57,410 nt of DNA from Candidatus Methanomethylicus mesodigestus (GTDB taxonomy: Archaea; Thermoproteota; Methanomethylicia; Methanomethylicales; Methanomethylicaceae). The notes under the pieces were generated by a model that was not told the DNA's origin, did not search any database, and was given only the letters and a program-made list of their open reading frames with translations. The stretch lies in assembly GCA_001717005.1 (NCBI GenBank), contig MAGS01000087.1:15453-72862 (forward strand). Reading direction: 5' to 3'. Both the position numbers and the translations under genes were made by a program. Shown piece by piece: positions 16,369 to 29,785 of the stretch (its first letter is position 1; each line of letters starts with the position of its first letter).

Positions 16369-16505
16369 ACTCCGGTCGCACCGGAGCGAAAATACTACAA
16401 CACGCAGCAGAAGGCACGAACCGCCATTTTCAATGGTGCCGTATTAACTGATACATGTCGCCATAAGTTGAATTATTCGCCCTTCCTTTTTTCTATTATG
16501 ACAAT

Positions 16506-16538
16506 AAGCTTATTAGCTGTTGGATGGATAATCCAACC
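16506..16538 (+). promoter_or_regulatory. Conserved promoter/operator block A (CTTATTA box plus palindrome GGATGGAT-A-ATCCAACC) upstream of the cobamide transport/salvage operon
   Basis: 28 of 33 positions are identical, ungapped, to 27276-27308, including a 16-nt perfect run ttggatggataatcca. The block ends 21 nt before the ATG at 16559. Confidence 0.6.
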
Positions 16539-16558
16539 ATAAGATTTGTGGTGATCCA

Positions 16559-17710
16559 ATGACATCGACCACTAATAAAATTATAATTGCGTCAGTCATC
16601 GTCATCTTAGCCATAGGCGCAGTCAGCGCCGCTGCGTTCTATACCGTAAACAACCAGCTCTCAACCGTGCTTGGGCAGCTGTCCGCACTGAACAGCCAGA
16701 TCTCTAGCATGAGCGGCCAAATCAACTCCCTAAATAATACCCTCACCGGTCTGACAAACGCGCAGACCGAGATAATGAACATCATCCAGACACTTATCGA
16801 CTCAACATACCCGATGACAATAACCGACGCTGCTGGCAGGGCTATCACGCTCTATTCTGCACCTGAACGGATAGTCTCCGGAGCGCCCTCCGTAACTGAA
16901 ATACTCTTTGCCCTCAACCTGTCGCAGCAGGTGGTTGGGGTCGACTCGTACTCCGACTACCCGCCGGAGCTGCTTAGCCTTGAGGCGACAGGCGCTATCC
17001 AGGTCGTTGGCGGGGTCTCAACACTGGACGTGGAGAAGGTAGCCGCCTTGGCTCCCGATCTGGTCATCATCGATTACGGCATGCAGGGGCAGTTCATCGA
17101 CACGCTAAGTGACTTGGGTCTCACCGTCATTGCCCTAAAATCTGACTCGATCCTTGTAGTTGAGCAGAATATCCTCCTGCTCGGAAAAATAAACGACCGG
17201 TCCAGCGAAGCCGTTGCGATCGTGGGCGAGATCGAGAGCACTGTCCAGTCGATCACTGCAAGCCTTGAGGGCGTGAATGATACCCGCGTCTTGGAGCTGA
17301 TGTGGCTCGACCCAATGTATACAACCGGCTCCGGGACCTACCTCAACGAGATAATCGAGATAGCCGGCGGCACAAACATCATGGCCGACAAGTCTGGATG
17401 GGGCGTAACCAACCCCGAGGAGATCCTCCTGAAGAACCCCGACGTCGTCATCTTTGACACCATGTACCTCTCCATGACCTACTCCGAGGTCTTTGGAACC
17501 TTCACAGCATTGGAGGGTTTCGAGAACGTAAACGCCATCATAAACGGGGATGTTTACGTCCTGACGAACCAATCGGCAAACCTCGTTGAGAGGGCCGGAC
17601 CAAGGATCGTTGACGCCATCAAGCTAATGGCATGCATCCTTCACCCCGACATCTTCAACGTGACCATCCCGACACTGCTCGGCGATGACTACCCCAACTA
17701 CATAAGGTGA
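16559..17710 (+). CDS. ABC transporter substrate-binding protein, BtuF/FepB (cobalamin/siderophore) type, membrane-anchored
   Basis: N-terminal TM helix, then a Q/N/S/L-rich heptad-like linker (~50 aa), then a periplasmic-binding-protein type 2 domain (RIVSGAPSVTEILFAL...PDLVI). Confidence 0.8.
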   Translation: MTSTTNKIIIASVIVILAIGAVSAAAFYTVNNQLSTVLGQLSALNSQISSMSGQINSLNNTLTGLTNAQTEIMNIIQTLIDSTYPMTITDAAGRAITLYSAPERIVSGAPSVTEILFALNLSQQVVGVDSYSDYPPELLSLEATGAIQVVGGVSTLDVEKVAALAPDLVIIDYGMQGQFIDTLSDLGLTVIALKSDSILVVEQNILLLGKINDRSSEAVAIVGEIESTVQSITASLEGVNDTRVLELMWLDPMYTTGSGTYLNEIIEIAGGTNIMADKSGWGVTNPEEILLKNPDVVIFDTMYLSMTYSEVFGTFTALEGFENVNAIINGDVYVLTNQSANLVERAGPRIVDAIKLMACILHPDIFNVTIPTLLGDDYPNYIR

Positions 17711-17714
17711 CGGC

Positions 17715-18734
17715 TTGGTGGAGACGACCATAAGGCAGAAGAGGTACAGATTCGTCGTTTACGCTGCTGTCCTCTCTCTTGCCTTGCTCTCCCTTTTTTT
17801 TATCTCCGTCATGATCGGCAGTGTCTGGTTCTCTCCTGAAACCGTAGTGGGCGTATTCTTTGGGACTGAAGGTAGCTCCACGATAACGAGCATCATCATG
17901 GGGTACCGCGTCCCACGCGTCCTGTTCGCACTCTTCACCGGCTTGGTCTTGGGCATATCTGGGGGAGTCATGCAGACGCTCACTAGGAACCCTCTGGCTG
18001 ACCCATACATCACCGGGCTTGCTTCCGGCGCCGCCCTCGGTGCGGCGGTTGCCTTCGTGATGCCTGGCATTCCGCTCTATGCCATTCCGATCTTCGCATT
18101 TGCGGGTGGCATCTTAATGCTCATGCTCGTTATGTTCATATCAAGGAAGGCTGGCAGCGGACCGCTCAACTTCATACTGGCAGGATTGGCGGTAGGAACC
18201 GTCGCCAGCGCCTTCCTCATGATCATCATAACGTCCGCGAGCAATGCGTCGCACGGCATCCTCTACTGGCTCTATGGATCGTTCTCGACGTCGAGCTGGT
18301 CTGATCTCTGGACTGCCGCCTTCATTGCGACGCCCTTCTTGATATTCATGCTGCTCAAGTCAAGAGACCTTAACATACTCATCTTCGGGGAGGACCATGC
18401 TAAGCAGTTGGGGATAAACTCACACCGATTGTGGGTCGCCCTGCTGTTATCGCTCAGCATCGCCGTCTCTGCATGCGTGGCATTCTGCGGCGTGATCGGC
18501 TTTATCGGTCTTGTGGCGCCGCACATAATGCGGTTGCTGGTCGGGTCCGACAACCGCTTCGTCTTGCCCCTGTCAGGCATGATGGGTGCGATCCTCCTGA
18601 TAGTGTCTGACGACATCGTCAGGAGCCCATTAAACCCGCTCTTCGAGATGCCCGTGGGTAGCATGACCGCCCTTATCGGCGTCCCGTTCTTCATTTACCT
18701 GTTGATCAAAAGAGGGAAGAACTTTGACCTCTGA
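17715..18734 (+). CDS. ABC transporter permease, FecCD/BtuC family
   Basis: About 10 predicted TM segments. Family blocks are present: NPLADPYITGLASGAALG and GVIGFIGLVAPHIMR. Confidence 0.9.
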   Translation: MVETTIRQKRYRFVVYAAVLSLALLSLFFISVMIGSVWFSPETVVGVFFGTEGSSTITSIIMGYRVPRVLFALFTGLVLGISGGVMQTLTRNPLADPYITGLASGAALGAAVAFVMPGIPLYAIPIFAFAGGILMLMLVMFISRKAGSGPLNFILAGLAVGTVASAFLMIIITSASNASHGILYWLYGSFSTSSWSDLWTAAFIATPFLIFMLLKSRDLNILIFGEDHAKQLGINSHRLWVALLLSLSIAVSACVAFCGVIGFIGLVAPHIMRLLVGSDNRFVLPLSGMMGAILLIVSDDIVRSPLNPLFEMPVGSMTALIGVPFFIYLLIKRGKNFDL

Positions 18735-19530
18735 AGAGCCTGCTCTCTCTCTGGAATGCGTGACCGTCGAATTAGGCGGAAAGAGGATCTTGGATAATAT
18801 CAACGCCAAAGTGATGGCTGGGGAGGTATTCGGCATAATCGGTCCGAACGGCTCTGGAAAAACGACTCTCCTCAAGTGCGTATCCCGGACGATCTCTCCC
18901 ATTAGCGGCCGCATATCCATACGGGGGAAGCCGATAGATGCCTATTCCGACAGGGACTTCTCAATAGAGGTTTCGGCAATGCTCCCCCACTGGCCGAGCG
19001 GCTTCAGCATAGACGCATATGAGATCGTGCTTATGGGCTGCAGGAACCGGACCAAAGGCATCTGGTGGGAGGGCGGCGAAGAGTTATCTGTCGTAGACGG
19101 CGTCCTCAGGCAGCTGAACGCCACGAACCTCATTCACAGGGACTTCGACACCCTTAGCAGTGGTGAGCAGCGCAAGATACTCATTGCGAAGTCGCTCGCG
19201 CAGCGGACAGGCATCGTCCTGCTTGATGAGCCCGTGGCATATTTGGACCTCAAGCACAAGCTGGAGGTCATGGAGGTCATGAGGGACTTGGCCAGCAGCG
19301 GACATACCGTGGTCATGTCCCTCCACGAGCTGGAGCTTGCATCGAAGTACTGCGATCACCTGCTGGCTTTGGACTCGGGAAACGTGAAGTTCTTCGGCAC
19401 GCCTAGGGAGGTCGTGACGGTCGACCTCCTCCGGGAGGTCTATGGAGTCCAGGCATACGTAAGGTGGGATGAGGCGTGCAACTTTGCCACGATAATACCG
19501 CGCAGCTCCAAAGATAGACGAGGTGGATAG
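18724..19530 (+). CDS. ABC transporter ATP-binding protein (BtuD/FepC type)
   Basis: Walker A GPNGSGKTT, signature LSSGEQ, Walker B VLLDEP. Overlaps the permease gene by 11 nt. Ends in TAG. Confidence 0.9.
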   Translation: MTSEEPALSLECVTVELGGKRILDNINAKVMAGEVFGIIGPNGSGKTTLLKCVSRTISPISGRISIRGKPIDAYSDRDFSIEVSAMLPHWPSGFSIDAYEIVLMGCRNRTKGIWWEGGEELSVVDGVLRQLNATNLIHRDFDTLSSGEQRKILIAKSLAQRTGIVLLDEPVAYLDLKHKLEVMEVMRDLASSGHTVVMSLHELELASKYCDHLLALDSGNVKFFGTPREVVTVDLLREVYGVQAYVRWDEACNFATIIPRSSKDRRGG

Positions 19531-19532
19531 AA

Positions 19533-20504
19533 ATGGCTACAAACGATCTTATCGATGAGCTTAATGAGCTAATCATTGGTACCCTCCGTAGGGGCGTATT
19601 TGACGGCATCCTCCTATCCGGGGGGATCGACAGCAGCCTTGTGGCTTGCCACGCATACACGATGGCGCCTCTTACTGGAGTGACGATGGCGCTGGACCGC
19701 GCTAATGCCCCTGATCTGTACTACTCCGAACTGGTCGCCAAGAGGACCCGCATAAACCATGTTCCCGCCTCTTATGACATGGAAACGGCAGAGGCTGCCG
19801 CGCGTGAAGTAGTCCAAGTTATGAAAACATTCGATCATGTGGAGATACGAAACGATATCACAATCCTGCTGGCGCTCAAGAGGCTGAAGGAAGCCGGCAT
19901 AAGCAAGGTTCTGACCGGCGACGGAGGAGACGAGCTCTTCGCCGGCTACAGCCACATGCTGGCGATGTCCCCAGAAGCGCTTCGTAAATACATCGGGTCA
20001 TTGACCAAGCGGTGGCGATTCTCATCCATAGCGCTCGGCAGGGCAATCGGCGTGACCGTTGTACCGCCGTTGATCGATGAAAAAATCGTCGAGTTCGCAT
20101 TGAAGTTGCCCTATGAATACTTGGTGCGTGAACGATACGGCATGCTCTGGGGAAAATGGGTCCTAAGGTCTGCCTTGGAGCGGTTCGGTCTTGGCGAGGT
20201 TGCCTGGAGGGAAAAGGCTCCAATAGAGAAGGGGAGCGGGAGCGAGCGGCTCAGCATCGCCTTCCAGAAGAAGCTGGGCGAGGGAATCCATGACATCAAG
20301 CGCGAAGCCGAGGTCGAGGGCGTTAGATTCTGGAGCGATGAGCAGATCTACTTCTATCAGCTATACCGGGAGCTGGTTGGCAATATCCCCCGGCCCTGTA
20401 GCGACGATGAGGCACGCTGCCCTCGTTGCGGAGCGGCAAAGCCAGAACGCCTTGCATTCTGCCGGGTCTGCGGCTACTGCGAATCTAAAGGCGAGGTCCT
20501 ATGA
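19533..20504 (+). CDS. Asparagine synthetase-like PP-loop ATPase (synthetase domain only, no glutaminase domain) with C-terminal zinc ribbon
   Basis: SGGIDSS PP-loop, LTGDGGDELFAGY, and C-terminal CPRCG...CRVCGYC. The ATG lies 2 nt after the btuD-like stop. Confidence 0.75.
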   Translation: MATNDLIDELNELIIGTLRRGVFDGILLSGGIDSSLVACHAYTMAPLTGVTMALDRANAPDLYYSELVAKRTRINHVPASYDMETAEAAAREVVQVMKTFDHVEIRNDITILLALKRLKEAGISKVLTGDGGDELFAGYSHMLAMSPEALRKYIGSLTKRWRFSSIALGRAIGVTVVPPLIDEKIVEFALKLPYEYLVRERYGMLWGKWVLRSALERFGLGEVAWREKAPIEKGSGSERLSIAFQKKLGEGIHDIKREAEVEGVRFWSDEQIYFYQLYRELVGNIPRPCSDDEARCPRCGAAKPERLAFCRVCGYCESKGEVL

Positions 20505-21148
20505 AAGGGGCGGCATTCTTCTCCGGGGGAAAGGACTCGGTCTATGCCATAATGAAGGCAAAAGAATGTGGGATCCCCGTAGATGTGCTTATCTTCAGCG
20601 TATATGATTTTCCGAGACCCAGTCCGCATTTCGTTAACTTCAAAATAGTGGAATCCATCGCGCAGGAGATGGGCTTACCGCTCGTTGTAAACAGGATGAA
20701 AAAGGGCGAAGAGGTCAAGAGAACAAGCGATCTGCTCGAAGAGCTAGGCGTGAGCCACATAGTTACCGGCGACATCTTCGCAGCCCACCTCCAATGGTTC
20801 TCTGAGATCTGCGCCCCCCTGCAAATATCCTACCATACGCCGCTTCTGCTCGATGGCACCAAGGACAGTCGTGCAGTCATCCTTGACGAGCTCGCCTTGG
20901 GGATACGCCCGCTGCTCGTGCATGTGGACGGTAGCCGCCTGCCAAAGGAATACCTTGGAAAGGTAATCGACAGGCGCCTTATCGAACGCATAAGCAAGAC
21001 ATCTGACCCTTGCGGCGAAAACGGCGAGTACCACACCTTGGCAATAGGCTTCCCTATGATGGGGAGATCTGTCAGCGTTGAAGACTCCGAGCAATTCAGT
21101 ATAGGGTTTCACCATTACCTCAAGATAAATCGTTTCAGTATGAAGTAA
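20501..21148 (+). CDS. PP-loop ATPase of the MJ0570 / Dph6 (diphthine-ammonia ligase-like) family
   Basis: SGGKDS at the N-terminus. ~215 aa alpha/beta ATP-pyrophosphatase fold family. ATGA start/stop overlap with the preceding gene. Confidence 0.7.
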   Translation: MKGAAFFSGGKDSVYAIMKAKECGIPVDVLIFSVYDFPRPSPHFVNFKIVESIAQEMGLPLVVNRMKKGEEVKRTSDLLEELGVSHIVTGDIFAAHLQWFSEICAPLQISYHTPLLLDGTKDSRAVILDELALGIRPLLVHVDGSRLPKEYLGKVIDRRLIERISKTSDPCGENGEYHTLAIGFPMMGRSVSVEDSEQFSIGFHHYLKINRFSMK

Positions 21149-21160
21149 GAGGCGCATGTC

Positions 21161-22549
21161 ATGTCTGCTATGGCTCAACACGGTGGAGAGGTGCTCCTGA
21201 TCTCAAAGGAGATGGCAATCCCGCTTACTGCATTGAAGGACTTCAGCCTGAACGCCAATCCATACGGTCCTCCGAAAGCAGTCATCAGTGCCATAAATGC
21301 GCACCTCAATCTGATCAGGTTCTACCCTGACCGCTCTTACGCGGGTCTAAAGGAAGCCATCGCATCCTCCATCCATGCCCCTCCAGCCAATGTGATTGTG
21401 GGCAATGGCTGCACCGAGATCATACACGCATTCATGTCAAGGTTCATCCGGAAGGGGTCGTTGCTCCTCTGCCTCCCCACTTTCAGCGAGTATGCGGCAG
21501 CCGCTGAGGCGCTTGGCATCAGTGTCTGCCTAGTTGAACCAAAAGGGGTCAGAGTGGATATAGACGCTCTAAAGGACGAGGCAACGACCAAGCGGGCATC
21601 GTGCATCATACTGTGCAACCCAAACAACCCTACAGGCGAGTTGATCCCTCGGCAAAAGGTGAAGGAAATCATCGAACTTGCCCTGCGCGAGGGTCTCTAT
21701 TTGATGGTTGACGAGGCATACATGGACTTCGCAGACGCCGGGTCGGACGCCTCTGTGGTTGACTTGGCGACATCCAGCGATTGCTTGGCTGTATTGAGGT
21801 CGCTGACCAAGCCGTATGGATTCCCCGGGCTGAGAGTGGGCTATGCCGTGTGCGGCAGCAACATCGCTTCGAGGTTCGACAAGACTGCCGTGAGCTGGCG
21901 CGTCGGAACTCTTGAGGACTGCGCAGGAATCGCGGCGCTGAACGACCAAGAGTTTCTCGCATCCTCAAAGATGAAGATGGCGCAGGAGAAGCGTTTCCTA
22001 ATGGACGGCATCTCTGAAATCGGATGCCTAAAGGTGTTGGAGTCGAAGAGCAACTTCTTGTTCATAGACCTCACCGAGAGCGGCTTCAGCCCAAAGAACC
22101 TCAAGTGGCGCCTCCTCTCGCACGGTGTTCTAATCAGGGAGCTCAGTGATGTAAAAGGCATATCGCATAACTTCATCAGGATATGCGTGAGAGACCGGAC
22201 GGATAACCGCCTGATACTCGACTCGCTCCGTAACATAATAACGCCGAATATATCGAGCATGGGGAAGCGAGGCTGCCCTTACTACCCCTGCCACTTCCCA
22301 GATCAGGCTTGCAGCTTCTGCAAGTGCCCGTTCTACCCGTGCCTCGACAACCTGACGGGCGGATTCTTCGCCCGGCGCACCACGAGCGGAATAATCTGGA
22401 GTTGCAAGGGGTGCGAATGGATACACCGAAAGGAAGTCGCCGGATTCGTCGAGGGCGCATTATCGGAGGCTGAGCTGGACATCCGGCGCGCAACCTCCGA
22501 TGAGCTCTTAGGCGTGAGAAAAAGAGCCATGAAGGCCTGCCCCCCATGA
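21161..22549 (+). CDS. cobD: L-threonine-O-3-phosphate decarboxylase CobD (PLP aminotransferase fold) with Cys-rich C-terminal extension
   Basis: Class I/II aminotransferase fold with PLP-Lys context SLTKPYGFPGLRVGY. Carries a ~100-aa tail: CPYYPCHFPDQACSFCKCPFYPC...WSCKGCEW. Confidence 0.85.
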   Translation: MSAMAQHGGEVLLISKEMAIPLTALKDFSLNANPYGPPKAVISAINAHLNLIRFYPDRSYAGLKEAIASSIHAPPANVIVGNGCTEIIHAFMSRFIRKGSLLLCLPTFSEYAAAAEALGISVCLVEPKGVRVDIDALKDEATTKRASCIILCNPNNPTGELIPRQKVKEIIELALREGLYLMVDEAYMDFADAGSDASVVDLATSSDCLAVLRSLTKPYGFPGLRVGYAVCGSNIASRFDKTAVSWRVGTLEDCAGIAALNDQEFLASSKMKMAQEKRFLMDGISEIGCLKVLESKSNFLFIDLTESGFSPKNLKWRLLSHGVLIRELSDVKGISHNFIRICVRDRTDNRLILDSLRNIITPNISSMGKRGCPYYPCHFPDQACSFCKCPFYPCLDNLTGGFFARRTTSGIIWSCKGCEWIHRKEVAGFVEGALSEAELDIRRATSDELLGVRKRAMKACPP

Positions 22550-23493
22550 TTGTCGATGGCGCACTAATACTGCTCTTGGCACTCGCGATAGACTTGGTGA
22601 TGGGAGAGCCGCCGCAGAAGGTCCATCTTACGGTCTGGATGGGGTGGCTCATAGAGCGGCTTGAGCATCCTATGAGGAGGCTGTTCAAGAACGAGAAGGT
22701 AGGCGGTGCCGCTCTGGCATCGGTCTCCATGGTCGCCTTTGTCGCGCCCTTGATCTTGGGCCTGTACATTCTGCACTCCTATAGCTGGGCGCTCTACATA
22801 GTGGCATCGGCATTCCTGCTAAAGACAACCTTCGCATTCAGGAGCATGTTTGGGCATGTAATGCCCATCCTTAACAACCTTGAGACCAACTTGGATGAGG
22901 CCAGGCGTCATGCCTCCCGGGTCGTGCGGAGGGACACCTCCAAGCTGGGGGCGCCCCTGATCGCATCGGTTGCCGTTGAGACTGTTGCGGAGGGGTTTGT
23001 GGACGGCACCCTCTCCCCGCTCTTCTATTATTGCCTGTTTGGGGTCCCTGGGGCGGTGGTATACAGAGTCATCAATACGCTTGACTCCACTGTTGGCTAC
23101 CTTGATGCCCGCTACGCCCGCTTCGGGTGGCTCTCGGCAAAGCTTGACACGATCGCGAATTACCTTCCTGCTCGTATCTCTGTGGCATTATTCGCGTGTG
23201 CCGCCCTCTTACTGAGGCTCGACTGGCGTGGGGCGATCAGGATCGCAAAGAGGGACCATGCCATCACCAAGAGCCGGAATGCAGGGTGGCCCATGTCTGC
23301 CATGGCCGGGGCGCTGAACGGGAGGCTTGAGAAGGTCGGGTCATACGCGCTGGGGGACCCCGTATCGCCACTCTGTTCCCGAAAGATAATGGAATCCCTG
23401 CGAATCTTTGCCTTAGCAACTTCATTGCTCTGCATCACGATCCTGGCATTCACATATTTATGGGGTGTTATGTTTGGAACAGGAACTACTTGA
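22546..23493 (+). CDS. cbiB: Adenosylcobinamide-phosphate synthase CbiB (CobD/CbiB family membrane protein)
   Basis: N-terminus LLLALAIDLVMGEPP..HLTVWMG. Polytopic membrane protein. ATGA overlap with cobD. Confidence 0.9.
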   Translation: MIVDGALILLLALAIDLVMGEPPQKVHLTVWMGWLIERLEHPMRRLFKNEKVGGAALASVSMVAFVAPLILGLYILHSYSWALYIVASAFLLKTTFAFRSMFGHVMPILNNLETNLDEARRHASRVVRRDTSKLGAPLIASVAVETVAEGFVDGTLSPLFYYCLFGVPGAVVYRVINTLDSTVGYLDARYARFGWLSAKLDTIANYLPARISVALFACAALLLRLDWRGAIRIAKRDHAITKSRNAGWPMSAMAGALNGRLEKVGSYALGDPVSPLCSRKIMESLRIFALATSLLCITILAFTYLWGVMFGTGTT

Positions 23494-24601
23494 CGGCGTA
23501 ACTCTATCTATAAGCAGAGACGCGCTGGCGATCACTGCCAAGAGAGAGATGAAGACGTTCAGCTCGGCAGCGGTCAACGGGGGGGCACAGCGGTCTAGGA
23601 CAATCTTAAACCTGAAGGTCGACAAGAACTTCAACGAGGATGTCGGCGTCCACTTCAAGAGCCGGATCGCCTCGATGGGGGCTGCCGAAGACTCCGTCTG
23701 CCTTATGACTGCCGCAGACGTTACAAAGGCGGCGGTAGCGATCGATGCCGCAGACAGCCTCAGGATGGCGGTCGTGGTCACCGCGGGCACTTCGAACGCA
23801 ACAAACATAGCCGAGAGTGATGCCATCCATGCCGCCGGCACCATCAACATCATAATCCTAGTGAATATGGGCATGACCGACGCGTGCATGGCAAACGCGA
23901 TAATTGCCGCCACCGAAGCCAAATGCAGTGCCCTGGCATCGCTCGACGTGAGGAGTATGTTCTCAAAAGGCGCCGCAACTGGCACCACATCAGACGCGAT
24001 GGTGGTCGCCTCTCTGCAGGAGGGCTCCCGGCTCTGCCTCTATTCCGGGGCAGCCACTGCTCTGGGCCAGCTGATCGGCAAAAATGTCAAGAGGGCTGTC
24101 AGGGCGGCAATAATGTCGCATGACAGCCTCCTCCCCCACCGGCCTCTCGAAGCAAGGCTCGCGGAAAGGGGCATCAGCGTTGAAGACCTCGTGTCCGCTG
24201 CAATGGTGATGTATGTCCCGCACCCGGCCGTCCCACAGGAGGATGCAAGGACCATCGTCCGCCAGCTCCTTGATGAGGCAATGGACGACGTGAACATAGC
24301 GTCCCTCATAATGGCTGCGATAAGGCTCAACGAAGACGGCGCCTCCGGCCTCATACCCAACATGCCCGAGGCGACCTACAACTCCGACCCCGTGCACCTC
24401 GTGGCCGACGAGATGATCGGAACTCTGATCAGCATGCAGATCGCCGGCTACTACGGCCTCTTCGAGTTCTACCGATTCGACAGGAAAAAGCCGGGCATCT
24501 TGGGCGTCCTGCCACCCTTCCTCGACGATGCCTTGGGGGCGCTGATCGCTGGGGTTTCCAGCAAGATGTACAGTGAGGTTATCAAGAGGCACCGCGAATG
24601 A
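23465..24601 (+). CDS. cbiZ: Adenosylcobinamide amidohydrolase CbiZ fused to a PgpA-like (CobZ-type alpha-ribazole-phosphate phosphatase) domain
   Basis: The N-terminal half matches the CbiZ family (FSSAAVNGG...TAGTSNA...TINIIILV). The C-terminal half has PgpA-family blocks ADEMIG, FYRFDRKKPG and LDDALGALIAGV. Confidence 0.7.
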   Translation: MLCLEQELLDGVTLSISRDALAITAKREMKTFSSAAVNGGAQRSRTILNLKVDKNFNEDVGVHFKSRIASMGAAEDSVCLMTAADVTKAAVAIDAADSLRMAVVVTAGTSNATNIAESDAIHAAGTINIIILVNMGMTDACMANAIIAATEAKCSALASLDVRSMFSKGAATGTTSDAMVVASLQEGSRLCLYSGAATALGQLIGKNVKRAVRAAIMSHDSLLPHRPLEARLAERGISVEDLVSAAMVMYVPHPAVPQEDARTIVRQLLDEAMDDVNIASLIMAAIRLNEDGASGLIPNMPEATYNSDPVHLVADEMIGTLISMQIAGYYGLFEFYRFDRKKPGILGVLPPFLDDALGALIAGVSSKMYSEVIKRHRE

Positions 24602-25341
24602 GCGTCATCAACGGTCTCAGGGCAGTCCTCTCCTTCCTCACGATAATCCCCGTGAGATCGTCCTCCATAGATGAGATGGCTAGGCACGCATACCTCTTTC
24701 CAGTGGTAGGGGGGCTCGTGGGCCTCGTTTGCGGAACCGTGGGCCTCTTCGCATTCAACCTCTTGCCCGATCAGCTCGCCGGGTGGGCTGTCATAGGGTG
24801 CCTGGGGCTGATCACCGGCCTCACCCACTTCGACAGCCTGCTTGACCTCGGGGATGGCCTCATGCTGAGGGGGACGCAAGAGAGGCGCCTGCAGGCTCTG
24901 CATGATAAATACCATGGAATCGGCGGCACATTCCTGCTATTGTTCTCCATCGTCGTTACTCAGTCGCTGGTGGTCTCTGCAGGGGGGGCTATCCTGACCA
25001 CTCTCATCGCAGCCGAGGCGCTGTCCAAGTTTTCAATGGTCTTACTGGGGTGCCTCGGGAAGCCCGGGCCTGAAGGGATCGGCGCAACCTTCATCAAGGC
25101 GCTAAGCAAACGGAAGTCGCTATACGCCGCTGCCTGCGCCTCCATATCGCTCCTGTTGAGCGTCCCCCTCTACCCACTCGGCAGCGCCATAGCATTCGTG
25201 TCCGTTGCGACCTTCACGGTGCTGATCAAGCGTTTCCTCATCCGGATATTCGGCTGCATAAACGGCGACATGATGGGCGCATGTGGCGAGTTCGCGCGGA
25301 TGATATCCTTGTTCGCCCTCATCTATGTGGTCGTGGCATGA
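24598..25341 (+). CDS. cobS: Adenosylcobinamide-GDP ribazoletransferase (cobalamin-5'-phosphate synthase) CobS
   Basis: LSFLTIIPV N-terminus. Polytopic membrane protein of ~247 aa. ATGA overlap with the preceding gene. Confidence 0.9.
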   Translation: MSVINGLRAVLSFLTIIPVRSSSIDEMARHAYLFPVVGGLVGLVCGTVGLFAFNLLPDQLAGWAVIGCLGLITGLTHFDSLLDLGDGLMLRGTQERRLQALHDKYHGIGGTFLLLFSIVVTQSLVVSAGGAILTTLIAAEALSKFSMVLLGCLGKPGPEGIGATFIKALSKRKSLYAAACASISLLLSVPLYPLGSAIAFVSVATFTVLIKRFLIRIFGCINGDMMGACGEFARMISLFALIYVVVA

Positions 25342-25342
25342 T

Positions 25343-25981
25343 ATGATTCTGAAGTCGCTGGTCATGGCCGGTGGCAGAGGAAGCCGGCTGAATCTGGGCC
25401 TCGAAAAGCCGATGCTCAGGCTGAACGGGGTTCCAATGATCGACTTCGTCATCTCTGCGTTGGAAGGGGCGTCCTCAATCGACGAGATCTATGTGGCGGT
25501 CTCTGAGCGCACGCCGGCGACCGCGCGCCACCTCATGACGAGCGCACGCACGTGGGTGATAAAGACCGCAGGCACAGGTTACCATGAGGATCTGGCTCAG
25601 GCCATCCGAACAATAGGGTCATTCAATTGCCTGACGGTCTCTGCGGATCTGCCTGCCCTCAAACCCGGCGACATAGACTTCGTGGTCATGGAGTATGCCG
25701 CCCGCAGGAAGCCATCGCTCTCCGTAGTTGCCCCCGCGGAGGAGCTGCGCGCGAGAGGGATCGAACCTTTCTCTACCATCCGACTGAATGGGGAGGATGT
25801 AGTGCCATGCGGAATTAACGTCATCGATGGCTCAATGATCGGCGAGCGCTATATCGAAGAATCGATGCTCGTCGTTCATTCTCCTCGGTTCTTCGTGAAT
25901 ATAAACACCGTCCGTGATCTTGATCTACTGCGCGCCATCGAGGGGTTCGATTTCAGAGCCGCAGGCGGGGGTCACGGATAA
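25343..25981 (+). CDS. cobY: Adenosylcobinamide-phosphate guanylyltransferase, archaeal CobY type (NTP-transferase fold)
   Basis: LVMAGGRGSRL nucleotidyltransferase motif. About 210 aa. The ATG lies 2 nt after the cobS stop (the ORF track starts at 25325). Confidence 0.8.
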   Translation: MILKSLVMAGGRGSRLNLGLEKPMLRLNGVPMIDFVISALEGASSIDEIYVAVSERTPATARHLMTSARTWVIKTAGTGYHEDLAQAIRTIGSFNCLTVSADLPALKPGDIDFVVMEYAARRKPSLSVVAPAEELRARGIEPFSTIRLNGEDVVPCGINVIDGSMIGERYIEESMLVVHSPRFFVNINTVRDLDLLRAIEGFDFRAAGGGHG

Positions 25982-27242
25982 GTCGGGTTTCGCCATTCAC
26001 GATTCGTTGGTAAAGCTCCCCGCCGCCCAAGCAGCCCCCCTTGGCCAATTCCGTGAATATGGGCATCACAAGCCTTCCTGATACCCTGCCAAGTGCTCCC
26101 TTCATTGCCTCCCTCTCGCTGTACCTGTCGACGCCATCGCGGATGAGGTTCGGGGCCTCTATGCTCAACGGCACCGGGTCCGCGGTATGCTCACGGCACT
26201 CTGTGGATGTCGTGTGGTCGGCGATGATCATCAGGCAAGAATCCCCTCCGTCCAAGCCACCCCTGATTGCACCCACCATGCCGTTCATCCTCTTGATGAT
26301 TGATACCTTTCCGTCCATGTTTCCATCATGGCTAGCCTCATCTGCCCCCTGCACATGCACCAGTACGAAATCATGACCTCCTATCGCTCGAAGTGCCGCC
26401 TCTGCCTTCGCCTGCACGTCCGTGTTCAGATCGCCAGTTGCCCCCTCCACATTGCAAACTTTAAAACCGGAGAGCCTGCAGATCCCTTTGATGAGCGCGG
26501 TGCCCGAGACACACGCCCCCCTCAGACCAAATATGCTGCTGAACTGCTTAAGCGCGGCTGCAGACCCGCCGCCCCATGGTATGATCGCGTTGCACCTGCA
26601 TTCCCCTCCGTCACGGTCTACCCCCTTCAAACCTAGACCGGACAGGGTATCCTTGGCGCCCCGCACGAACTCATCGAGCACACCCGCCGCCTCCCTCTCC
26701 CTCTCGACCCGGCTGAGGCTGCACAAGACGGCGCCCGCCCTTGGCATCTGGCCCCAACTCTTGCATGACTGGTCGACCCCCCTCAATATCAGGATACCCT
26801 TGAAGCCCCCTGTGTGCCAGAAGCATAATTTCACACCCCTCGCACCGCGGAGCCGCATACCATCTATGGCACACTCGACCGCCTCCCCGTCCGTCTCTGA
26901 TATTGATACCCTAGGATCTATGACGGTACCAGTGCCGTCCACCCTCGCCAGGTTGCACCTGAACGCCAACTCTCCATGCCTTAAATCAATTCCCGCCCCG
27001 GCCGCCTCCAACGGCCCCCTGCCGGTGTATGATGCGGCTGGATCCTGCCCAAGTATCGTCAGGTGGGCGATGTCGCTTCCAGCGGCGATCCCCGGCGCTA
27101 CCGGGTCGAGAAGCCCGGATACGCCCCCGGAGGCAATTCCGTGGAAGTGAGCGGGGTCGGCAGCCTCCAGCGGCGTTCTATATCCTAGGCGTTCGATCGG
27201 AAGGTCCGCCATGCCATCACCCACTATCAGCACGCAACGCAA
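25953..27242 (-). CDS. Cofactor-independent phosphoglycerate mutase-like metalloenzyme (archaeal ApgM / alkaline-phosphatase superfamily)
   Basis: N-terminus [11 protein letters not shown]-terminal region [18 protein letters not shown]. About 429 aa. Its 3' end overlaps the cobY 3' end by 29 nt (convergent). Confidence 0.75.
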
Positions 27243-27275
27243 GGGCCCCCCTCCATCTTGGTTAATCGCCGCGCA

Positions 27276-27308
27276 AAACTTATTAAGTTTTGGATGGATA
27301 ATCCATCC
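27276..27308 (+). promoter_or_regulatory. Conserved promoter/operator block B (CTTATTA box plus perfect palindrome GGATGGAT-A-ATCCATCC) in the divergent apgM-like/cobT intergenic region
   Basis: 28 of 33 positions are identical to 16506-16538. The 8+1+8 perfect dyad lies at 27292-27308, 37 nt before the TTG start of the cobT-like gene. Confidence 0.6.
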
Positions 27309-27344
27309 GACGAGATTATGCCGCTTTAACTGAAGGAATCTTCG

Positions 27345-28460
27345 TTGGAGAAAGTCTATGACGTAATCCTTGCCAGAAACCCCCCGCGGGGACGGGCTTT
27401 CATAAACCGGATAGCTGGCGCCCTTCCCCTCTTCCTGTTGGCGCTAGGCACAACAGACACCGCCAAGATCCCGTCGATATCCGCGGCAGGCGCCACCCCT
27501 GAGATTACAGACTTCACGCCGCCGGCTGACGCGGAGCTTCTCTATTATGGCAGGTGCAGGTGCATATCCGGCGTCCCCATCACGCCCGAAGGCATCCCGA
27601 CCCCCGCGCTCATAACAAGGTCTGCGCTCAGGTTGGCCGGAATGCCCTCGATTGTGGCAGTCGGGGGCCTCCGGGTGGCCCCTTCCATCCCATTCATCAA
27701 CCTAGGGGGGTTGCCTGGCATGGACATCAAGACCGGCTGCGCCGTCAAGGATGCGGCGGAGGTCCTAGAGAAGGCAACTATCGCCGGAGACCACCTCACC
27801 AGAAACTCCGATTACGTAGTCGTCGGGGAGAGCGCACCCGGCGGGACGACCACTGCCCTCGGCGTCCTCGTTTCAATGGGTTACGACGCGTGGGGCAAGG
27901 TGAGCAGCAGCATGCCCCGTAACCCCCACAAACTCAAGAGGAGCGTCGTTGAGACCGCCCTGACAAGCGCCTGTCTCCGTGAGGGCTCTCTGCGCAATGA
28001 CCCTCTGAAAGCCATCTCATGCGTGGGGGATTCGATGATGCCCGCCGCTGCCGGGCTCATACTCGGGGCGGCAAGGAATGTGCCGGTAATCATGGCTGGA
28101 GGCACGCAGATGGCGGCGCTCCTCGCCATCGTCAACTCCATGAATCCAGCCTTGGCAGGCAACCTCGCCATAGGAACGACCCGGTGGCTCATTGAAGACG
28201 GCACCTCCGACCTGATTGGGCTCGTTTCCCAGATTGCCGATATCCCCGTTCTGGCAGCGGATATGAACTTCAGCAAATCCCGCTTTGCTGGACTCCAGGC
28301 GTATGAGAGGGGCGTGGTGAAAGAAGGCGCAGGGGCTGGAGGGTCCGCAATTGCTGCAATGGCTTGGTCGCATGGGCGGATCACGGGAGATGCCCTCCTG
28401 CATGAAATGGAGGCGGGCTATGAATCGCTTGTCGGCCTAGGCAAGCAAGGGGAGCGATGA
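27345..28460 (+). CDS. cobT: Archaeal-type nicotinate-nucleotide:dimethylbenzimidazole phosphoribosyltransferase (CobT homolog, UPF0284/MJ1598 family)
   Basis: Family blocks are present: TAKIPSISAAGATPE, IPTPALITRS and VGESAPGGTTTALGVL. The only in-frame start after the upstream stop is TTG at 27345. Confidence 0.8.
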   Translation: MEKVYDVILARNPPRGRAFINRIAGALPLFLLALGTTDTAKIPSISAAGATPEITDFTPPADAELLYYGRCRCISGVPITPEGIPTPALITRSALRLAGMPSIVAVGGLRVAPSIPFINLGGLPGMDIKTGCAVKDAAEVLEKATIAGDHLTRNSDYVVVGESAPGGTTTALGVLVSMGYDAWGKVSSSMPRNPHKLKRSVVETALTSACLREGSLRNDPLKAISCVGDSMMPAAAGLILGAARNVPVIMAGGTQMAALLAIVNSMNPALAGNLAIGTTRWLIEDGTSDLIGLVSQIADIPVLAADMNFSKSRFAGLQAYERGVVKEGAGAGGSAIAAMAWSHGRITGDALLHEMEAGYESLVGLGKQGER

Positions 28461-29254
28461 CGATGACGGCGATGCGCCGCCGATGCAAACCCCGCTCCAC
28501 AGCGGGCAAGACCGAGGATCTGCTGGCCGCCTCGTTTGAAGACATAGCCATAATTGGGGGAGGCAAATACGGCTCGAAGGCAATCAAGGCGCTCAGGGAT
28601 CGTGCTCGAAGTATTGTTGTTATAGACAACGACCCGTTCTGTCCAGCCAGCTCGCAATCTGATCGCGTCTGCGGCTTGGACGACCGCGCCATATTCGCCG
28701 GCGGCACCTCATTCATTTTGGCGGATGGCGCATCTGCCCTCTTGCACATGCTCTCCTCAGGCGCAGTGCCCGACTACGTGATTCCATGCGCGCCGCAGAA
28801 CGTGATGGCCCAGCTCTTCAAGGCATGGGCGGCAAGCAAGGGCCTCCTGGCTATCTCCGACGAGGAGGAGACCCGGCGTGCACGCCATTCCGTGCCGAAG
28901 GAGGTGCTTGTGCGAGAGGATGCAGAGCGGGGACTCATCGTAACGAGCTTCTCTAACGGAAAGCCCTGCTCTCCCCTGTGTTTGGAAGGCGATTACTGCC
29001 CCATAAGCGGTGAGTCGAGGCCGACGTCGATGTTCGCCCTGCTTTCAAGCAAAATCAAGGGGGATGCCTGCATGATCTTCCAGAGCCGCCTTCTGGCGCC
29101 TGAGGTGGGCGGTATCGGCGGGCGCGATATCGCCGACGCATTCAGCTCCCTCTCGCCCAAACTCTGCGACGGGACCAGACTGGCAATAGGGACTGCCTGC
29201 GCATGCCACGGCATAATCGACTTCATGTCGCTCAGGCGCTCGCTGCGCGCGTAG
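28457..29254 (+). CDS. Hypothetical protein: KTN/TrkA-N-like NAD-binding domain plus Cys-rich C-terminal region
   Basis: IAIIGGGKYGSKAIKAL...IVVIDNDP resembles a Rossmann/KTN domain. Later Cys motifs are CSPLCLEGDYCP and CACHG. ATGA overlap with the cobT stop. Ends in TAG. Confidence 0.55.
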   Translation: MTMTAMRRRCKPRSTAGKTEDLLAASFEDIAIIGGGKYGSKAIKALRDRARSIVVIDNDPFCPASSQSDRVCGLDDRAIFAGGTSFILADGASALLHMLSSGAVPDYVIPCAPQNVMAQLFKAWAASKGLLAISDEEETRRARHSVPKEVLVREDAERGLIVTSFSNGKPCSPLCLEGDYCPISGESRPTSMFALLSSKIKGDACMIFQSRLLAPEVGGIGGRDIADAFSSLSPKLCDGTRLAIGTACACHGIIDFMSLRRSLRA

Positions 29255-29358: not shown

Positions 29359-29601
29359 GTGTTAGAGGTGCCGCTGGCATTCGTTTTAGTGAATGTTGAG
29401 GCCGGGACCGACAAGGAGGTCCTTGCAAACCTGAAGAAGGTCCCTGAAGTCAAGTCTGCCTACATGGTCTATGGCGTGTACGACATCGTTGTAATGATAG
29501 AGTCCGACACACTCGAGCGTCTCCGCGAGATGGTGACCAAGAAGGTCCGCCAGCTAGACAAAGTACGCTCAACTATGACCATGATCGTGATGGAGAGCTG
29601 A
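29359..29601 (+). CDS. Stand-alone Lrp/AsnC-type ligand-binding (RAM) domain protein
   Basis: 80 aa. AFVLVNVEAG...VKSAYMVYGVYDIVVMIE follows the pattern of the AsnC C-terminal domain. GTG start. Confidence 0.65.
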   Translation: MLEVPLAFVLVNVEAGTDKEVLANLKKVPEVKSAYMVYGVYDIVVMIESDTLERLREMVTKKVRQLDKVRSTMTMIVMES

Positions 29602-29660: not shown

Positions 29661-29785
29661 GTGCGCCGGCCATAGTTGGTGGGAACCACCCGTTCCCATT
29701 CCGAACACGGCAGTTAAACCACCATACGTCTGTGGCGGTACTGGACGCCGAGAGGGTCCGGGAACCCACGGAAGCTGGCGGCCAC
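29661..29785 (+). rRNA. rrf: 5S ribosomal RNA (unlinked to 16S/23S in this window)
   Basis: ccatag...cccgttcccattccgaacacggcagttaaac...gtactgg...gggaac core. Helix I pairs 29664-29670 with 29774-29780. A TATA-like aaaatataaaaa lies ~29 nt upstream. Confidence 0.9.

What the first reader, a model, noticed from the sequence alone, without database searches (positions are those of the whole stretch)
16506..16538. 33-nt promoter/operator block with a GGATGGAT-A-ATCCATCC palindrome shared by the two cobamide operons
The stretch aagcttattagctgttggatggataatccaacc (16506-16538, upstream of the btuF-like gene) aligns without gaps to aaacttattaagttttggatggataatccatcc (27276-27308, upstream of the cobT-like gene). 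28 of 33 positions are identical, including 16 consecutive identical bases, while the surrounding intergenic DNA is unrelated. The block has a TATA-like CTTATTA box followed at fixed spacing by an 8+1+8 dyad. The dyad is perfect at 27292-27308 and has one mismatch at 16522-16538. With archaeal TATA-to-start spacing of ~25 nt, the dyad would cover the transcription start, which is the usual arrangement for an archaeal repressor. Both downstream operons are devoted to corrinoid uptake, salvage or lower-ligand attachment. This looks like the operator of a cobamide-responsive regulon controlled by a protein rather than a B12 riboswitch. No regulator gene is obvious next to either site.
Basis: seen in the sequence. 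Interest (0 to 1): 0.65.

Follow-up and report, generated by a model that had tools for sequence, protein, structure and literature searches.

The report
Archaeal vitamin B12 promoter-operator box
The two matching 33-base blocks are real promoter-plus-operator sites of a vitamin B12 uptake and salvage regulon found in many archaeal phyla, and genome comparison points to an uncharacterised DNA-binding protein family (DUF4443/PH0730) as the regulator that has so far been missing.

Summary
In detail: 16506-16538 and 27276-27308 match at 28 of 33 positions, while the flanks match at chance level. Each block is a TATA-like box, a 6-nt spacer and a 17-bp dyad (GGATGGATAATCCAWCC). One lies upstream of a btuFCD-cobinamide salvage operon, the other upstream of a cobT operon.

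The window comes from a Bathyarchaeia archaeon. The same dyad is conserved upstream of B12 genes in relatives. In archaea the dyad sits just downstream of a TATA box, and the start codon usually follows within 12 nt. The flanking genes are mostly B12-related: BtuF, ECF-S-like/DUF4430 pairs, NrdD, MtaB and salvage genes. No riboswitch was found.

One DNA-binding family recurs next to the dyad, in 20 of 87 loci: a winged-helix protein with a DUF4443 domain (PH0730 family, function unknown). It is the best candidate regulator. It is not encoded in this window.

Protein-controlled archaeal B12 regulons have been predicted before (CBL-box; RegPrecise "CblrR", regulator unknown), so the operator is a new member of a known kind. 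The regulator assignment may be new.

The parts
16506..16538 (+). Block 1: promoter-operator upstream of the btuF operon (AAGCTTATTAGCTGTTGGATGGATAATCCAACC).
   Evidence: 28/33 identity to block 2, with flanks at chance level.
16509..16515 (+). TATA-like box CTTATTA of the btuF promoter, 6 nt upstream of the dyad.
   Evidence: One search gives the coordinates. By analogy, 55 oriented archaeal loci have an AT-rich box at -12 to -3 from the dyad. The function is inferred.
16522..16538 (.). Operator dyad GGATGG-ATAAT-CCAACC, one mismatch from a perfect palindrome.
   Evidence: BtuF genes sit next to the same dyad in 14 other archaeal loci.
16550..16555 (+). GGTGAT Shine-Dalgarno-like sequence ahead of the btuF ATG at 16559. 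It implies a leader of about 20 nt if transcription starts near 16538.
   Evidence: The start position is inferred from the usual archaeal TATA-to-start spacing of about 26 nt (established knowledge, from memory).
16559..25981 (+). Operon 1: btuF (16559-17710), btuC, btuD, an Asn_synthase-like gene, a Dph6-like ATP pyrophosphatase gene, cobD with a zf-like domain, cbiB, a cbiZ-cobZ (CbiS-type) fusion, cobS and cobY.
   Evidence: Pfam and NCBIfam scans. The same gene order is found in the relative L001.
27276..27308 (+). Block 2: promoter-operator upstream of cobT (AAACTTATTAAGTTTTGGATGGATAATCCATCC).
   Evidence: It is conserved in L001, whose CobT is 80% identical, with one substitution in the spacer and a perfect dyad, while the sequence 3' of the dyad diverges. 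It is identical in L004.
27274..27292 (.). Near-palindromic CAAAAC-TTATTAAG-TTTTG, read as a symmetric BRE-TATA-BRE core serving both cobT (+) and the apgM-like gene (-).
   Evidence: One search gives the coordinates, and the sequence shows the symmetry directly. Bidirectional use is inferred.
27292..27308 (.). Perfect operator dyad GGATGGAT-A-ATCCATCC.
27345..29254 (+). Operon 2: archaeal-type cobT (27345-28460, TTG start) and an AF_1314_C-like Rossmann protein (28457-29254).
   Evidence: TIGR00303, 4e-114; the AF_1314_C family in the homologous gene of L001. The TTG start aligns with the ATG start in L001.
25953..27242 (-). apgM-like (iPGM family) gene transcribed divergently from site 2. 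For this gene the dyad abuts the upstream edge of the presumed BRE.
   Evidence: The same divergent arrangement is seen in L001 and L004. An apgM-like gene also flanks the dyad in L060.

Best explanation
Each block is an archaeal core promoter (BRE/TATA) fused to the operator of a cobamide (vitamin B12) regulon. The 17-bp dyad has two GGATGG half-sites whose centres are 11 bp apart, which suits a homodimeric winged-helix protein. It lies between the TATA box and the transcription start. A bound regulator would therefore let TBP and TFB bind but block recruitment of RNA polymerase. The controlled genes are those a cell needs when B12 is scarce: uptake, cobinamide salvage, nucleotide-loop assembly and, in other archaea, the B12-independent reductase NrdD. 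The regulator is therefore inferred to bind DNA when loaded with a corrinoid and to shut these genes off. In this window that means joint repression of the btuFCD-salvage operon and the cobT operon, and probably an effect on the divergent apgM-like gene. The most likely regulator is a protein of about 205 aa with an N-terminal CggR-like winged helix and a C-terminal DUF4443 domain (PH0730 family). Its gene must lie outside this 57-kb window. What is shown: the sequence anatomy, the conservation, the gene context, and the co-location of the regulator gene with the dyad. What is inferred: the transcription start position, the binding, the repression and the identity of the ligand.
For: (1) The two sites are the only matches in the window, against 0.03 expected, and the flanks are unrelated. 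(2) In a relative with 80% CobT identity the block is kept while the sequence 3' of the dyad diverges. More distant Bathyarchaeia carry the same or a near-identical dyad after a TATA box, upstream of an ECF-S-like gene followed by cobT, cobS and cobY (L005) and upstream of btuF (L006). Ca. Bathyarchaeum tardum has the variant GGTTGG-TTACT-CCAACC upstream of cobT. By record title, 87 are archaeal: Bathyarchaeia 29, Nitrososphaeria 18, Methanomassiliicoccales/Thermoplasmata 10, Caldarchaeales 9, and also Hadarchaeota, Korarchaeia, Methanomethylicia and Culexarchaeia. (4) A TATA-like box lies within 16 nt of the dyad in 74 of 87 archaeal hits but 10 of 33 bacterial hits. The dyad falls inside a long ORF in 11 of 87 archaeal hits but 15 of 33 bacterial hits. 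(5) First flanking genes include an ECF-S-like membrane protein (25 loci), BtuF (14), DUF4430 (7), NrdD (5), DUF6580 (3), MtaB (2), and CbiZ, CbiM and a URO-D family gene (1 each). In all, 58 of 87 archaeal loci have a B12-related first flanking gene. (6) No Rfam family matches at E<=1 across 16300-27500. (7) The winged-helix/DUF4443 family is the only recurrent DNA-binding family near the dyad. It is in 20 of 87 archaeal loci and 0 of 33 bacterial loci. In 9 loci its gene diverges directly from the dyad, 26-77 nt away. It is the third most recurrent family overall. (8) Six regulator genes found by protein homology alone were also examined. Three have the dyad within 0.6-1.6 kb, in a divergent cobS/cobY-ECF promoter, and a fourth sits beside a B12-dependent mutase cluster. 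(9) The AlphaFold model (pLDDT 89) matches PH0730 (2p8t, E 2e-11) and the DNA-bound CggR DNA-binding domain.
Against: There is no experimental evidence. The transcription start is not mapped, because the public RNA-labelled runs that hold this organism are too thin. No DUF4443 gene is present in the window or in loci L001-L007, and I could not check the rest of the genome. Three of the six independently found regulator loci lack the dyad. In one of these (L128) the regulator gene sits in the S13-S4-S11-rpoD cluster. The C-terminal domain resembles the AspRS insertion domain and not any known B12-binding fold, so the ligand is inferred only from the content of the regulon. The same dyad precedes mcrB in Methanomassiliicoccales and a cbiM gene, so the signal could be broader than B12.
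Confidence: 0.72

Rival explanations
1. The dyad is a genuine B12-regulon operator, but it is bound by some other, unidentified regulator. The DUF4443 protein would then be a co-regulated B12-related protein, or the regulator of something else.
For: No DUF4443 gene is present in the window or in L001-L007. Three of six independently found DUF4443 loci lack the dyad, and one (L128) lies in a ribosomal protein and RNA polymerase cluster. No B12-binding fold is recognisable.
Against: It is the only DNA-binding family that recurs near the dyad: 20 of 87 loci, 9 of them directly divergent. It has a clear CggR-type winged helix. Regulator genes are often unlinked to their targets, so its absence from 57 kb is weak evidence.
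Confidence: 0.15
2. The operator responds to a signal other than cobamide, such as cobalt or nickel, a general tetrapyrrole, or the state of methyl-group metabolism. B12 genes would be only part of its regulon.
For: The same dyad precedes mcrB in 7 Methanomassiliicoccales loci; MCR uses the nickel tetrapyrrole F430 (established knowledge, from memory). It also precedes a cbiM cobalt-uptake gene and mtaB. The ligand domain is of unknown type.
Against: Most targets are specific to B12 itself: BtuF, DUF4430, CobT, CbiZ and CobS/CobY. NrdD, a B12-independent isozyme, is a classic target of B12 control in bacteria (established knowledge, from memory). MtaB works with a corrinoid protein, and methyl-reducing methanogenesis depends on corrinoid proteins, so these targets also fit B12.
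Confidence: 0.08
3. The palindrome acts at the RNA level, as a 5' hairpin that affects stability or translation, or as a very small riboswitch.
For: If transcribed, the dyad would fold into a 7-9 bp hairpin. The site 2 leader folds better than shuffled sequence, z = -3.2.
Against: In 47 of 55 oriented loci the start codon lies within 12 nt of the dyad, with the TATA box immediately upstream of it. The dyad is therefore mostly untranscribed. No Rfam match was found. The site 1 fold is no better than chance, z = -0.7. A 17-nt hairpin is too small to bind a corrinoid.
Confidence: 0.03
4. It is a chance similarity, a fragment of a dispersed repeat, or a shared constitutive core promoter with no regulatory role.
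For: Only two copies exist in the window, and both contain a generic TATA-like box.
Against: 0.03 matches are expected by chance. The dyad is conserved across archaeal phyla, specifically beside B12 genes, at a fixed position relative to the TATA box. There is one copy per locus and no features of a mobile element.
Confidence: 0.02

Closest known systems
CBL-box, the binding signal of a hypothetical archaeal B12 regulator (Rodionov et al. [quoted passage not shown]
   Same: Both are palindromic DNA signals upstream of cobalamin transport and biosynthesis genes in archaea, which lack B12 riboswitches. Both are attributed to a protein regulator that had not been identified as of 2023.
   Different: I could not read the published consensus, so identity with GGATGGATWATCCATCC is untested. 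The lineages found here (Bathyarchaeia, Nitrososphaeria, Caldarchaeales, Methanomassiliicoccales, Hadarchaeota) were not sequenced in 2003. No candidate regulator is named in the literature I could search.
Cobalamin riboswitch (Rfam RF00174)
   Same: It is the functional analogue in bacteria. It shuts off btuFCD, cob/cbi genes and B12-independent isozymes such as nrdDG and metE when B12 is available. The regulon content matches what sits behind the dyad here.
   Different: It is an RNA element of about 200 nt in the leader. Nothing of the kind is present. Here the element is a 17-bp DNA dyad that is largely untranscribed.
ThiR and RbkR, protein regulators of thiamine and riboflavin genes in archaea (Rodionov/Rodionova et al. 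2017, recalled from memory; mentioned in PMC10746257 and PMC8305020)
   Same: Both are vitamin regulons that bacteria run with riboswitches and archaea run with a winged-helix protein fused to a ligand-binding domain. In both, the palindromic operators overlap the promoters.
   Different: The ligand domains differ: ThiN-like and riboflavin-kinase-like, against DUF4443. The operator sequences and the vitamin also differ.
Archaeal repressors that bind between the TATA box and the start site (MDR1, LrpA, Phr, TrmB, NrpR); established knowledge, from memory
   Same: The operator has the same position relative to TATA and start, so the same inferred mechanism applies: RNA polymerase recruitment is blocked after TBP and TFB have bound.
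   Different: The protein families and signals are different. Binding and mechanism have not been tested here.
PH0730 of Pyrococcus horikoshii (PDB 2p8t) and the CggR DNA-binding domain (7oyk, 8r3g)
   Same: The candidate regulator matches PH0730 over its whole length (phmmer E 3e-7, Foldseek E 2e-11, TM 0.69/0.76). Its N-terminal domain matches the operator-bound CggR winged helix.
   Different: PH0730 is a structural-genomics entry with no assigned function. CggR has a SorC sugar-phosphate-binding domain, not DUF4443, and controls glycolysis genes in Bacillus.
CarH/LitR and AerR, bacterial B12-binding transcription regulators
   Same: They are protein-based B12 sensors that control transcription.
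   Different: They use the canonical B12-binding domain (PF02310), act as light sensors and control carotenoid or photosystem genes. The candidate here carries only the CggR_N/PH0730-like_N and DUF4443 domains.

Membership tests
Archaeal promoter-proximal repressor operator | A palindromic site suited to a dimeric regulator. | tested here: met
   The 17-bp dyad is perfect at 27292-27308 and has one mismatch at 16522-16538.
Archaeal promoter-proximal repressor operator | The site lies downstream of the TATA box and reaches the transcription start. | tested here: inconclusive
   The geometry fits. The TATA-like box lies 6 nt upstream of the dyad here. In 55 oriented loci the box is at -12 to -3 and the start codon follows within 12 nt in 47. 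No transcription start could be mapped.
Archaeal promoter-proximal repressor operator | Bound by a specific regulator that lowers transcription. | not testable with these tools
   This needs EMSA or footprinting and in vitro or in vivo transcription.
Predicted archaeal B12 regulon (CBL-box / RegPrecise CblrR) | A conserved DNA palindrome upstream of cobalamin transport, salvage or biosynthesis genes in archaea. | tested here: met
   58 of 87 archaeal loci carrying the dyad have a B12-related first flanking gene. Both window sites precede B12 operons.
Predicted archaeal B12 regulon (CBL-box / RegPrecise CblrR) | The regulon includes B12-independent isozymes as well as transporters. | tested here: met
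   NrdD starts 1-8 nt after the dyad in 5 loci.
Predicted archaeal B12 regulon (CBL-box / RegPrecise CblrR) | The sequence agrees with the published CBL-box consensus. | not testable with these tools
   The 2003 paper is not held. No held paper contains the term.
Cobalamin riboswitch (RF00174) | A match to the covariance model, including the B12 box and conserved helices, in the leader. | tested here: not met
   There is no hit at gathering threshold in the window and none at E<=1 across 16300-27500.
Dispersed repeat or mobile-element fragment | Many copies at unrelated loci, with repeat termini or transposition genes. | tested here: not met
   The window has two copies, both in promoters. There is one copy per 8-kb locus elsewhere, and the gene context is coherent.
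DUF4443/PH0730-type winged-helix regulator as the cognate factor | The regulator gene is genomically linked to the operator across lineages. | tested here: met
   It is in 20 of 87 archaeal dyad loci and 0 of 33 bacterial loci, and directly divergent in 9. Three of six regulator loci found by homology alone carry the dyad.
DUF4443/PH0730-type winged-helix regulator as the cognate factor | The regulator is present in the genome that carries this window. | tested here: inconclusive
   It is absent from the 57-kb window.
DUF4443/PH0730-type winged-helix regulator as the cognate factor | It binds a corrinoid. | not testable with these tools
   The fold search found no known B12-binding fold. The C-terminal domain resembles the AspRS insertion domain.

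The most novel reading that the evidence does not exclude
The DUF4443/PH0730 family (about 900 representatives at 50% identity) is the long-missing cobamide-sensing transcription factor of archaea. When loaded with a corrinoid it would bind GGATGGATWATCCATCC. Placed between the TATA box and the start site, it would repress uptake, salvage and B12-independent isozyme genes. Placed upstream of the TATA box, as before mcrB in Methanomassiliicoccales, it would activate. It would then be the protein counterpart of the bacterial B12 riboswitch, with a new kind of corrinoid-binding domain.
Probability: 0.5. Interest if true: 0.8.

Novelty: new member of a known kind. Interest (0 to 1): 0.68.

Why it matters
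Archaea make, salvage and depend heavily on cobamides, in methanogenesis and in ammonia oxidisers that supply B12 to the ocean among other settings. They lack B12 riboswitches, and how they sense B12 has been open since a binding signal for a "hypothetical B12 regulator" was predicted in 2003 (from memory). The regulator was still listed as unknown in 2023 (PMC10746257).

This window shows a clean two-operator example. Following it outward gives four things. The first is a precise 17-bp operator with fixed promoter geometry that is shared by Thermoproteota lineages, Methanomassiliicoccales and Hadarchaeota. The second is a coherent regulon that flags uncharacterised genes as B12-related: ECF-S-like/DUF4430 uptake pairs, two ATP-pyrophosphatase-like genes and an apgM-like gene. 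The third is a specific, structurally solved but unannotated protein family as the candidate sensor. The fourth is that the question becomes directly testable with a gel shift and a corrinoid-binding assay.

It would also let B12 auxotrophy and B12 dependence be read from regulatory signals in uncultured archaea.

Tried and rejected
1. Riboswitch or other known RNA. cmscan found nothing at gathering threshold over the whole window or at E<=1 over 16300-27500.

2. Transcription start mapping from public data. RNA-labelled sludge runs hold the operon only as thin contigs of depth 2-5, with no coverage pattern at the promoter. These runs may also contain DNA. One contig from run X28, apparently a variant strain, keeps 47 of the 49 aligned bases over 16492-16540, while its flanks differ more and carry indels. 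This is weak support only.

3. Metagenome scans. A BtuF-based locus search and the pattern CTTATTANNNNNTGGATGGATAATCCAWCC both returned nothing. L001 and L002, which are JGI contigs, contain that pattern, so this collection evidently does not hold them.

4. Conservation of site 1 in the 80% relative. L001-L003 start inside btuF, and the BtuF homologue search did not return that relative's protein, so its upstream region could not be fetched.

5. Regulator gene in the window. An HMM of the DUF4443 family found none in the window or in L001-L007. The neighbouring 80-aa ORF (29359-29601) is a stand-alone RAM domain with no HTH. The 265-aa gene after cobT is Rossmann-like and not a DNA binder.

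6. Literature. The Rodionov 2003 paper is not held. No held paper has 'CBL-box'. No paper mentions DUF4443, and PH0730 appears only as a family label.

7. A B12-binding fold in the candidate regulator. Foldseek against the PDB gave PH0730, CggR-type winged helices and the AspRS insertion domain, and no corrinoid-binding protein.

8. Looser half-site scans (GGATGG-N5-CCATCC, up to 2 mismatches) gave mostly noise in both archaeal and bacterial loci. The few extra convincing sites keep the ATWAT centre, so all 17 bp appear to matter.

9. The sigma-70 promoter scanner was not used, because the organism is an archaeon.

Full report
**Observation**

The two stretches read exactly as reported. Aligned without gaps, 16506-16538 and 27276-27308 share 28 of 33 positions. 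The 60 nt on either side of the same diagonal share 18/60 and 15/60, which is chance level. The ten best 33-mer matches of the whole btuF upstream region against the window all lie on this one diagonal. The best match on the opposite strand is 22/33. The 19-mer TTGGATGGATAATCCAWCC, with up to three mismatches allowed, occurs only at these two places in 57 kb, against 0.03 expected from shuffles. CTTATTA lies 6 nt upstream of the dyad in both copies. The dyad is perfect at 27292-27308 and has one mismatch at 16522-16538.

**Gene context**

The window is archaeal: it contains an archaeal SRP RNA and a lone 5S rRNA, and its GC content is about 60%. The CobT-like protein has its best hits in Bathyarchaeia.

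- Site 1 precedes btuF, btuC, btuD, an Asn-synthase-like gene, a Dph6-like ATP pyrophosphatase gene, cobD (with a zf-like domain), cbiB, a cbiZ-cobZ fusion, cobS and cobY.
- Site 2 lies between a minus-strand apgM-like gene and archaeal-type cobT followed by an AF_1314_C-like gene.
- At site 2 the TATA box sits inside a near-palindrome, CAAAAC-TTATTAAG-TTTTG (27274-27292). This looks like a symmetric BRE-TATA-BRE core serving both directions. The dyad lies only on the cobT side.
- No Rfam family matches, neither at gathering threshold nor at E<=1 across 16300-27500.

**Conservation in relatives**

- A contig with 99% identical CobT has the identical block.
- In a relative with 80% CobT identity and the same gene order, the segment TTAATCGCCGCGCAAAACTTATTAA-N-TTTTGGATGGATAATCCATCC is kept. 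The 36 nt between the dyad and the cobT start codon diverge.
- In Bathyarchaeia with about 63% CobT identity, TTATATT-GGATGGATAATCCATCC precedes an ECF-S-like gene followed by cobT, cobS and cobY (L005). TTTATAAAAT-GGATAGATAATCCATCC precedes btuF (L006).
- Ca. Bathyarchaeum tardum has the variant GGTTGG-TTACT-CCAACC upstream of cobT.

**Wider distribution**

By record title, 87 are archaeal:

- Bathyarchaeia 29
- Nitrososphaeria 18
- Methanomassiliicoccales/Thermoplasmata 10
- Caldarchaeales/Aigarchaeota 9
- Hadarchaeota 3
- Korarchaeia-like 3
- Conexivisphaerales 2
- Methanomethylicia 2
- Culexarchaeia 1
- the remainder unclassified

The other 33 loci are bacterial. Archaea are a small minority of that collection (about 5% of species, from memory), so the enrichment is very large.

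The bacterial hits behave like chance matches. In 15 of 33 the dyad falls inside a long ORF, against 11 of 87 for archaea. Only 10 of 33 have an AT-rich box nearby, against 74 of 87 for archaea.

**Promoter geometry**

I oriented 55 archaeal loci only by the nearest downstream ORF. In these:

- positions -10 to -5 from the dyad are 82-93% A/T (a TTTATATA-like box);
- position -1 is usually T, and the dyad is usually followed by AA;
- the start codon follows within 12 nt in 47 of 55.

The usual archaeal spacing from TATA centre to start site is about 26 nt (established knowledge, from memory). That puts the transcription start 0-3 nt after the dyad. Most of these transcripts would then be leaderless, and the dyad would be mostly untranscribed.

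In the window the TATA box lies slightly further upstream. The predicted starts are near 16538 and 27308, giving leaders of about 20 and 37 nt. A GGTGAT Shine-Dalgarno sequence precedes btuF.

**Regulon content**

The first genes flanking the dyad in archaea include:

- an ECF-S-like membrane protein of about 190 aa (25 loci)
- BtuF (14)
- DUF4430 proteins (7)
- McrB (7, all in Methanomassiliicoccales-type loci)
- NrdD (5)
- DUF6580 (3)
- MtaB (2)
- CbiZ, CbiM and a URO-D family methyltransferase (1 each)

In all, 58 of 87 archaeal loci have a B12-related first neighbour. Uptake, salvage and a B12-independent isozyme are also what B12 riboswitches control in bacteria (established knowledge, from memory).

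**Candidate regulator**

I clustered all ORFs of the 87 archaeal loci. The most recurrent families are a DUF4430-like protein (30 loci), the ECF-S-like protein (30), and then a protein of about 205 aa in 19-20 loci. BtuF, BtuD and BtuC follow.

- The 205-aa family has a CggR_N/PH0730-like_N winged helix and a DUF4443 domain.
- By HMM it is present in 20 of 87 archaeal loci and 0 of 33 bacterial loci. It is absent from the window and from L001-L007.
- In nine loci its gene diverges directly from the dyad, 26-77 nt away.

As a test free of motif ascertainment, I fetched six homologues found by protein search alone. Three (L130-L132) have the dyad 0.6-1.6 kb from the regulator gene, flanked by TATA-like boxes on both sides, at the head of a divergent operon containing cobS and cobY-ECF genes. 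A fourth (L133) sits beside a B12-dependent mutase cluster. Two have no B12 context, and one of these lies inside the S13-S4-S11-rpoD cluster.

The family has about 900 representatives at 50% identity with E<=1e-10. Sources annotate it only as hypothetical or DUF4443. Its only solved relative is PH0730 (2p8t), a structural-genomics entry. The AlphaFold model (pLDDT 89) matches 2p8t (E 2e-11). Its N-terminal domain matches DNA-bound CggR, and its C-terminal domain resembles the AspRS insertion domain. No known corrinoid-binding fold appears.

**Mechanism**

The evidence fits a dimeric winged-helix regulator that binds two GGATGG half-sites one helical turn apart, between the TATA box and the start site, and so blocks polymerase recruitment. 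The targets are genes needed when B12 is scarce, and the operator position implies repression when it is occupied. The DNA-binding form should therefore be the corrinoid-loaded one.

A side observation fits this. In seven Methanomassiliicoccales-type loci the same dyad lies 9-10 nt upstream of a canonical TATA box in front of mcrB. Archaeal activators usually bind in that position (established knowledge, from memory). Switching on methyl-reducing methanogenesis when corrinoid is available would make physiological sense.

These steps are all inferences. Binding, ligand, transcription start and direction of regulation are untested.

**Comparison with what is known**

A binding signal (CBL-box) for a hypothetical B12 regulator in some archaea was predicted by Rodionov et al. 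in 2003. I recall this from memory; the paper is not held. [quoted passage not shown] A protein-controlled archaeal B12 regulon is therefore a known, predicted kind, and the element here is a new member of it in lineages unknown at that time. I could not check whether the consensus is the same. I found no paper that links DUF4443/PH0730 to B12 or to any function, so the regulator assignment may be new. ThiR and RbkR are the closest conceptual parallels.

**Limits**

- The scan needed an exact 17-mer and was truncated, so the counts are a sample.
- Taxonomy comes from record titles.
- RNA data were too thin to map starts.
- Both metagenome scans returned nothing.
- Conservation of site 1 in the closest relative could not be fetched.
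- The genome outside the window could not be searched for the regulator.

**Verdict**

The element is a promoter-operator of an archaeal B12 regulon. Its most probable regulator is an uncharacterised DUF4443/PH0730-family protein encoded elsewhere in the genome.

Noticed in passing
window 25953-27242 (-), and L001 8631-9899, L004 1895-3184, L060: An apgM-like (iPGM family) gene diverges from the dyad-bearing cobT or btuF promoter in several genomes. It also matches the 'proposed homoserine kinase' branch (TIGR02535, 6e-80). It could be the L-threonine kinase that makes threonine phosphate for the B12 aminopropanol linker.
   Followed up: partly
window 19533-20504 and 20501-21148: Two ATP-pyrophosphatase-like genes sit inside the salvage operon. 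One is an Asn-synthase C-domain without the glutaminase domain; the other is Dph6-like (TTX_0299 family). The Dph6-like gene recurs in B12 clusters elsewhere: 8 dyad loci, plus L006 and L130-L132. Both may amidate incomplete corrinoids.
   Followed up: partly
L011 3884-4880, L005 9349-9957 and about 30 other loci: The commonest target of the dyad is a gene pair: an ECF-S-like membrane protein of about 190 aa and a DUF4430-like secreted protein of about 150 aa. This is a likely B12 uptake system in Nitrososphaeria, Bathyarchaeia and Caldarchaeales. The window has neither gene.
   Followed up: partly
L026, L032, L035, L040, L042, L053, L092: In Methanomassiliicoccales-type loci the identical dyad lies 9-10 nt upstream of a TATA box (GCTTATAT or GTTTATAT) before mcrB. 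A conserved leader of about 70-100 nt follows. This is activator-like geometry, which suggests the regulator has a dual role.
   Followed up: partly
L075, L080, L101, L109, L110: The class III ribonucleotide reductase gene nrdD starts 1-8 nt after the dyad. It is a B12-independent isozyme placed under the same operator, as happens with bacterial B12 riboswitches.
   Followed up: partly
L128 6001-6627: In one Bathyarchaeia genome the DUF4443 regulator gene sits inside the conserved S13-S4-S11-[gene]-rpoD-L18e-L13-S9 cluster, with no dyad nearby.
   Followed up: no
L023 3776-3792, L044 861-877, L095 3197-3213: Three Streptomyces genomes share the same 17-mer in a conserved divergent intergenic region beside an aminotransferase gene. 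A second palindrome (ATGAACTATCCAG...CTGGATAGTTCAT) is close by. This is probably the operator of an unrelated bacterial regulator.
   Followed up: no
window 29359-29601 and 29662-29783: An 80-aa stand-alone RAM (AsnC-type ligand-binding) domain protein with no HTH follows the cobT operon, and it is conserved in L001. Next to it is a lone 5S rRNA gene.
   Followed up: no
window 16492-16540, RNA-labelled run X28: A contig from a variant strain keeps 47 of the 49 aligned bases across the promoter-operator block. Its flanks carry more substitutions and small indels.
   Followed up: no
L130 5408-5424, L131 5409-5425, L132 4428-4444: Here the dyad has TATA-like boxes on both sides (GTTATATT-dyad-AATATAAT). 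One operator appears to serve two back-to-back, overlapping divergent promoters.
   Followed up: partly
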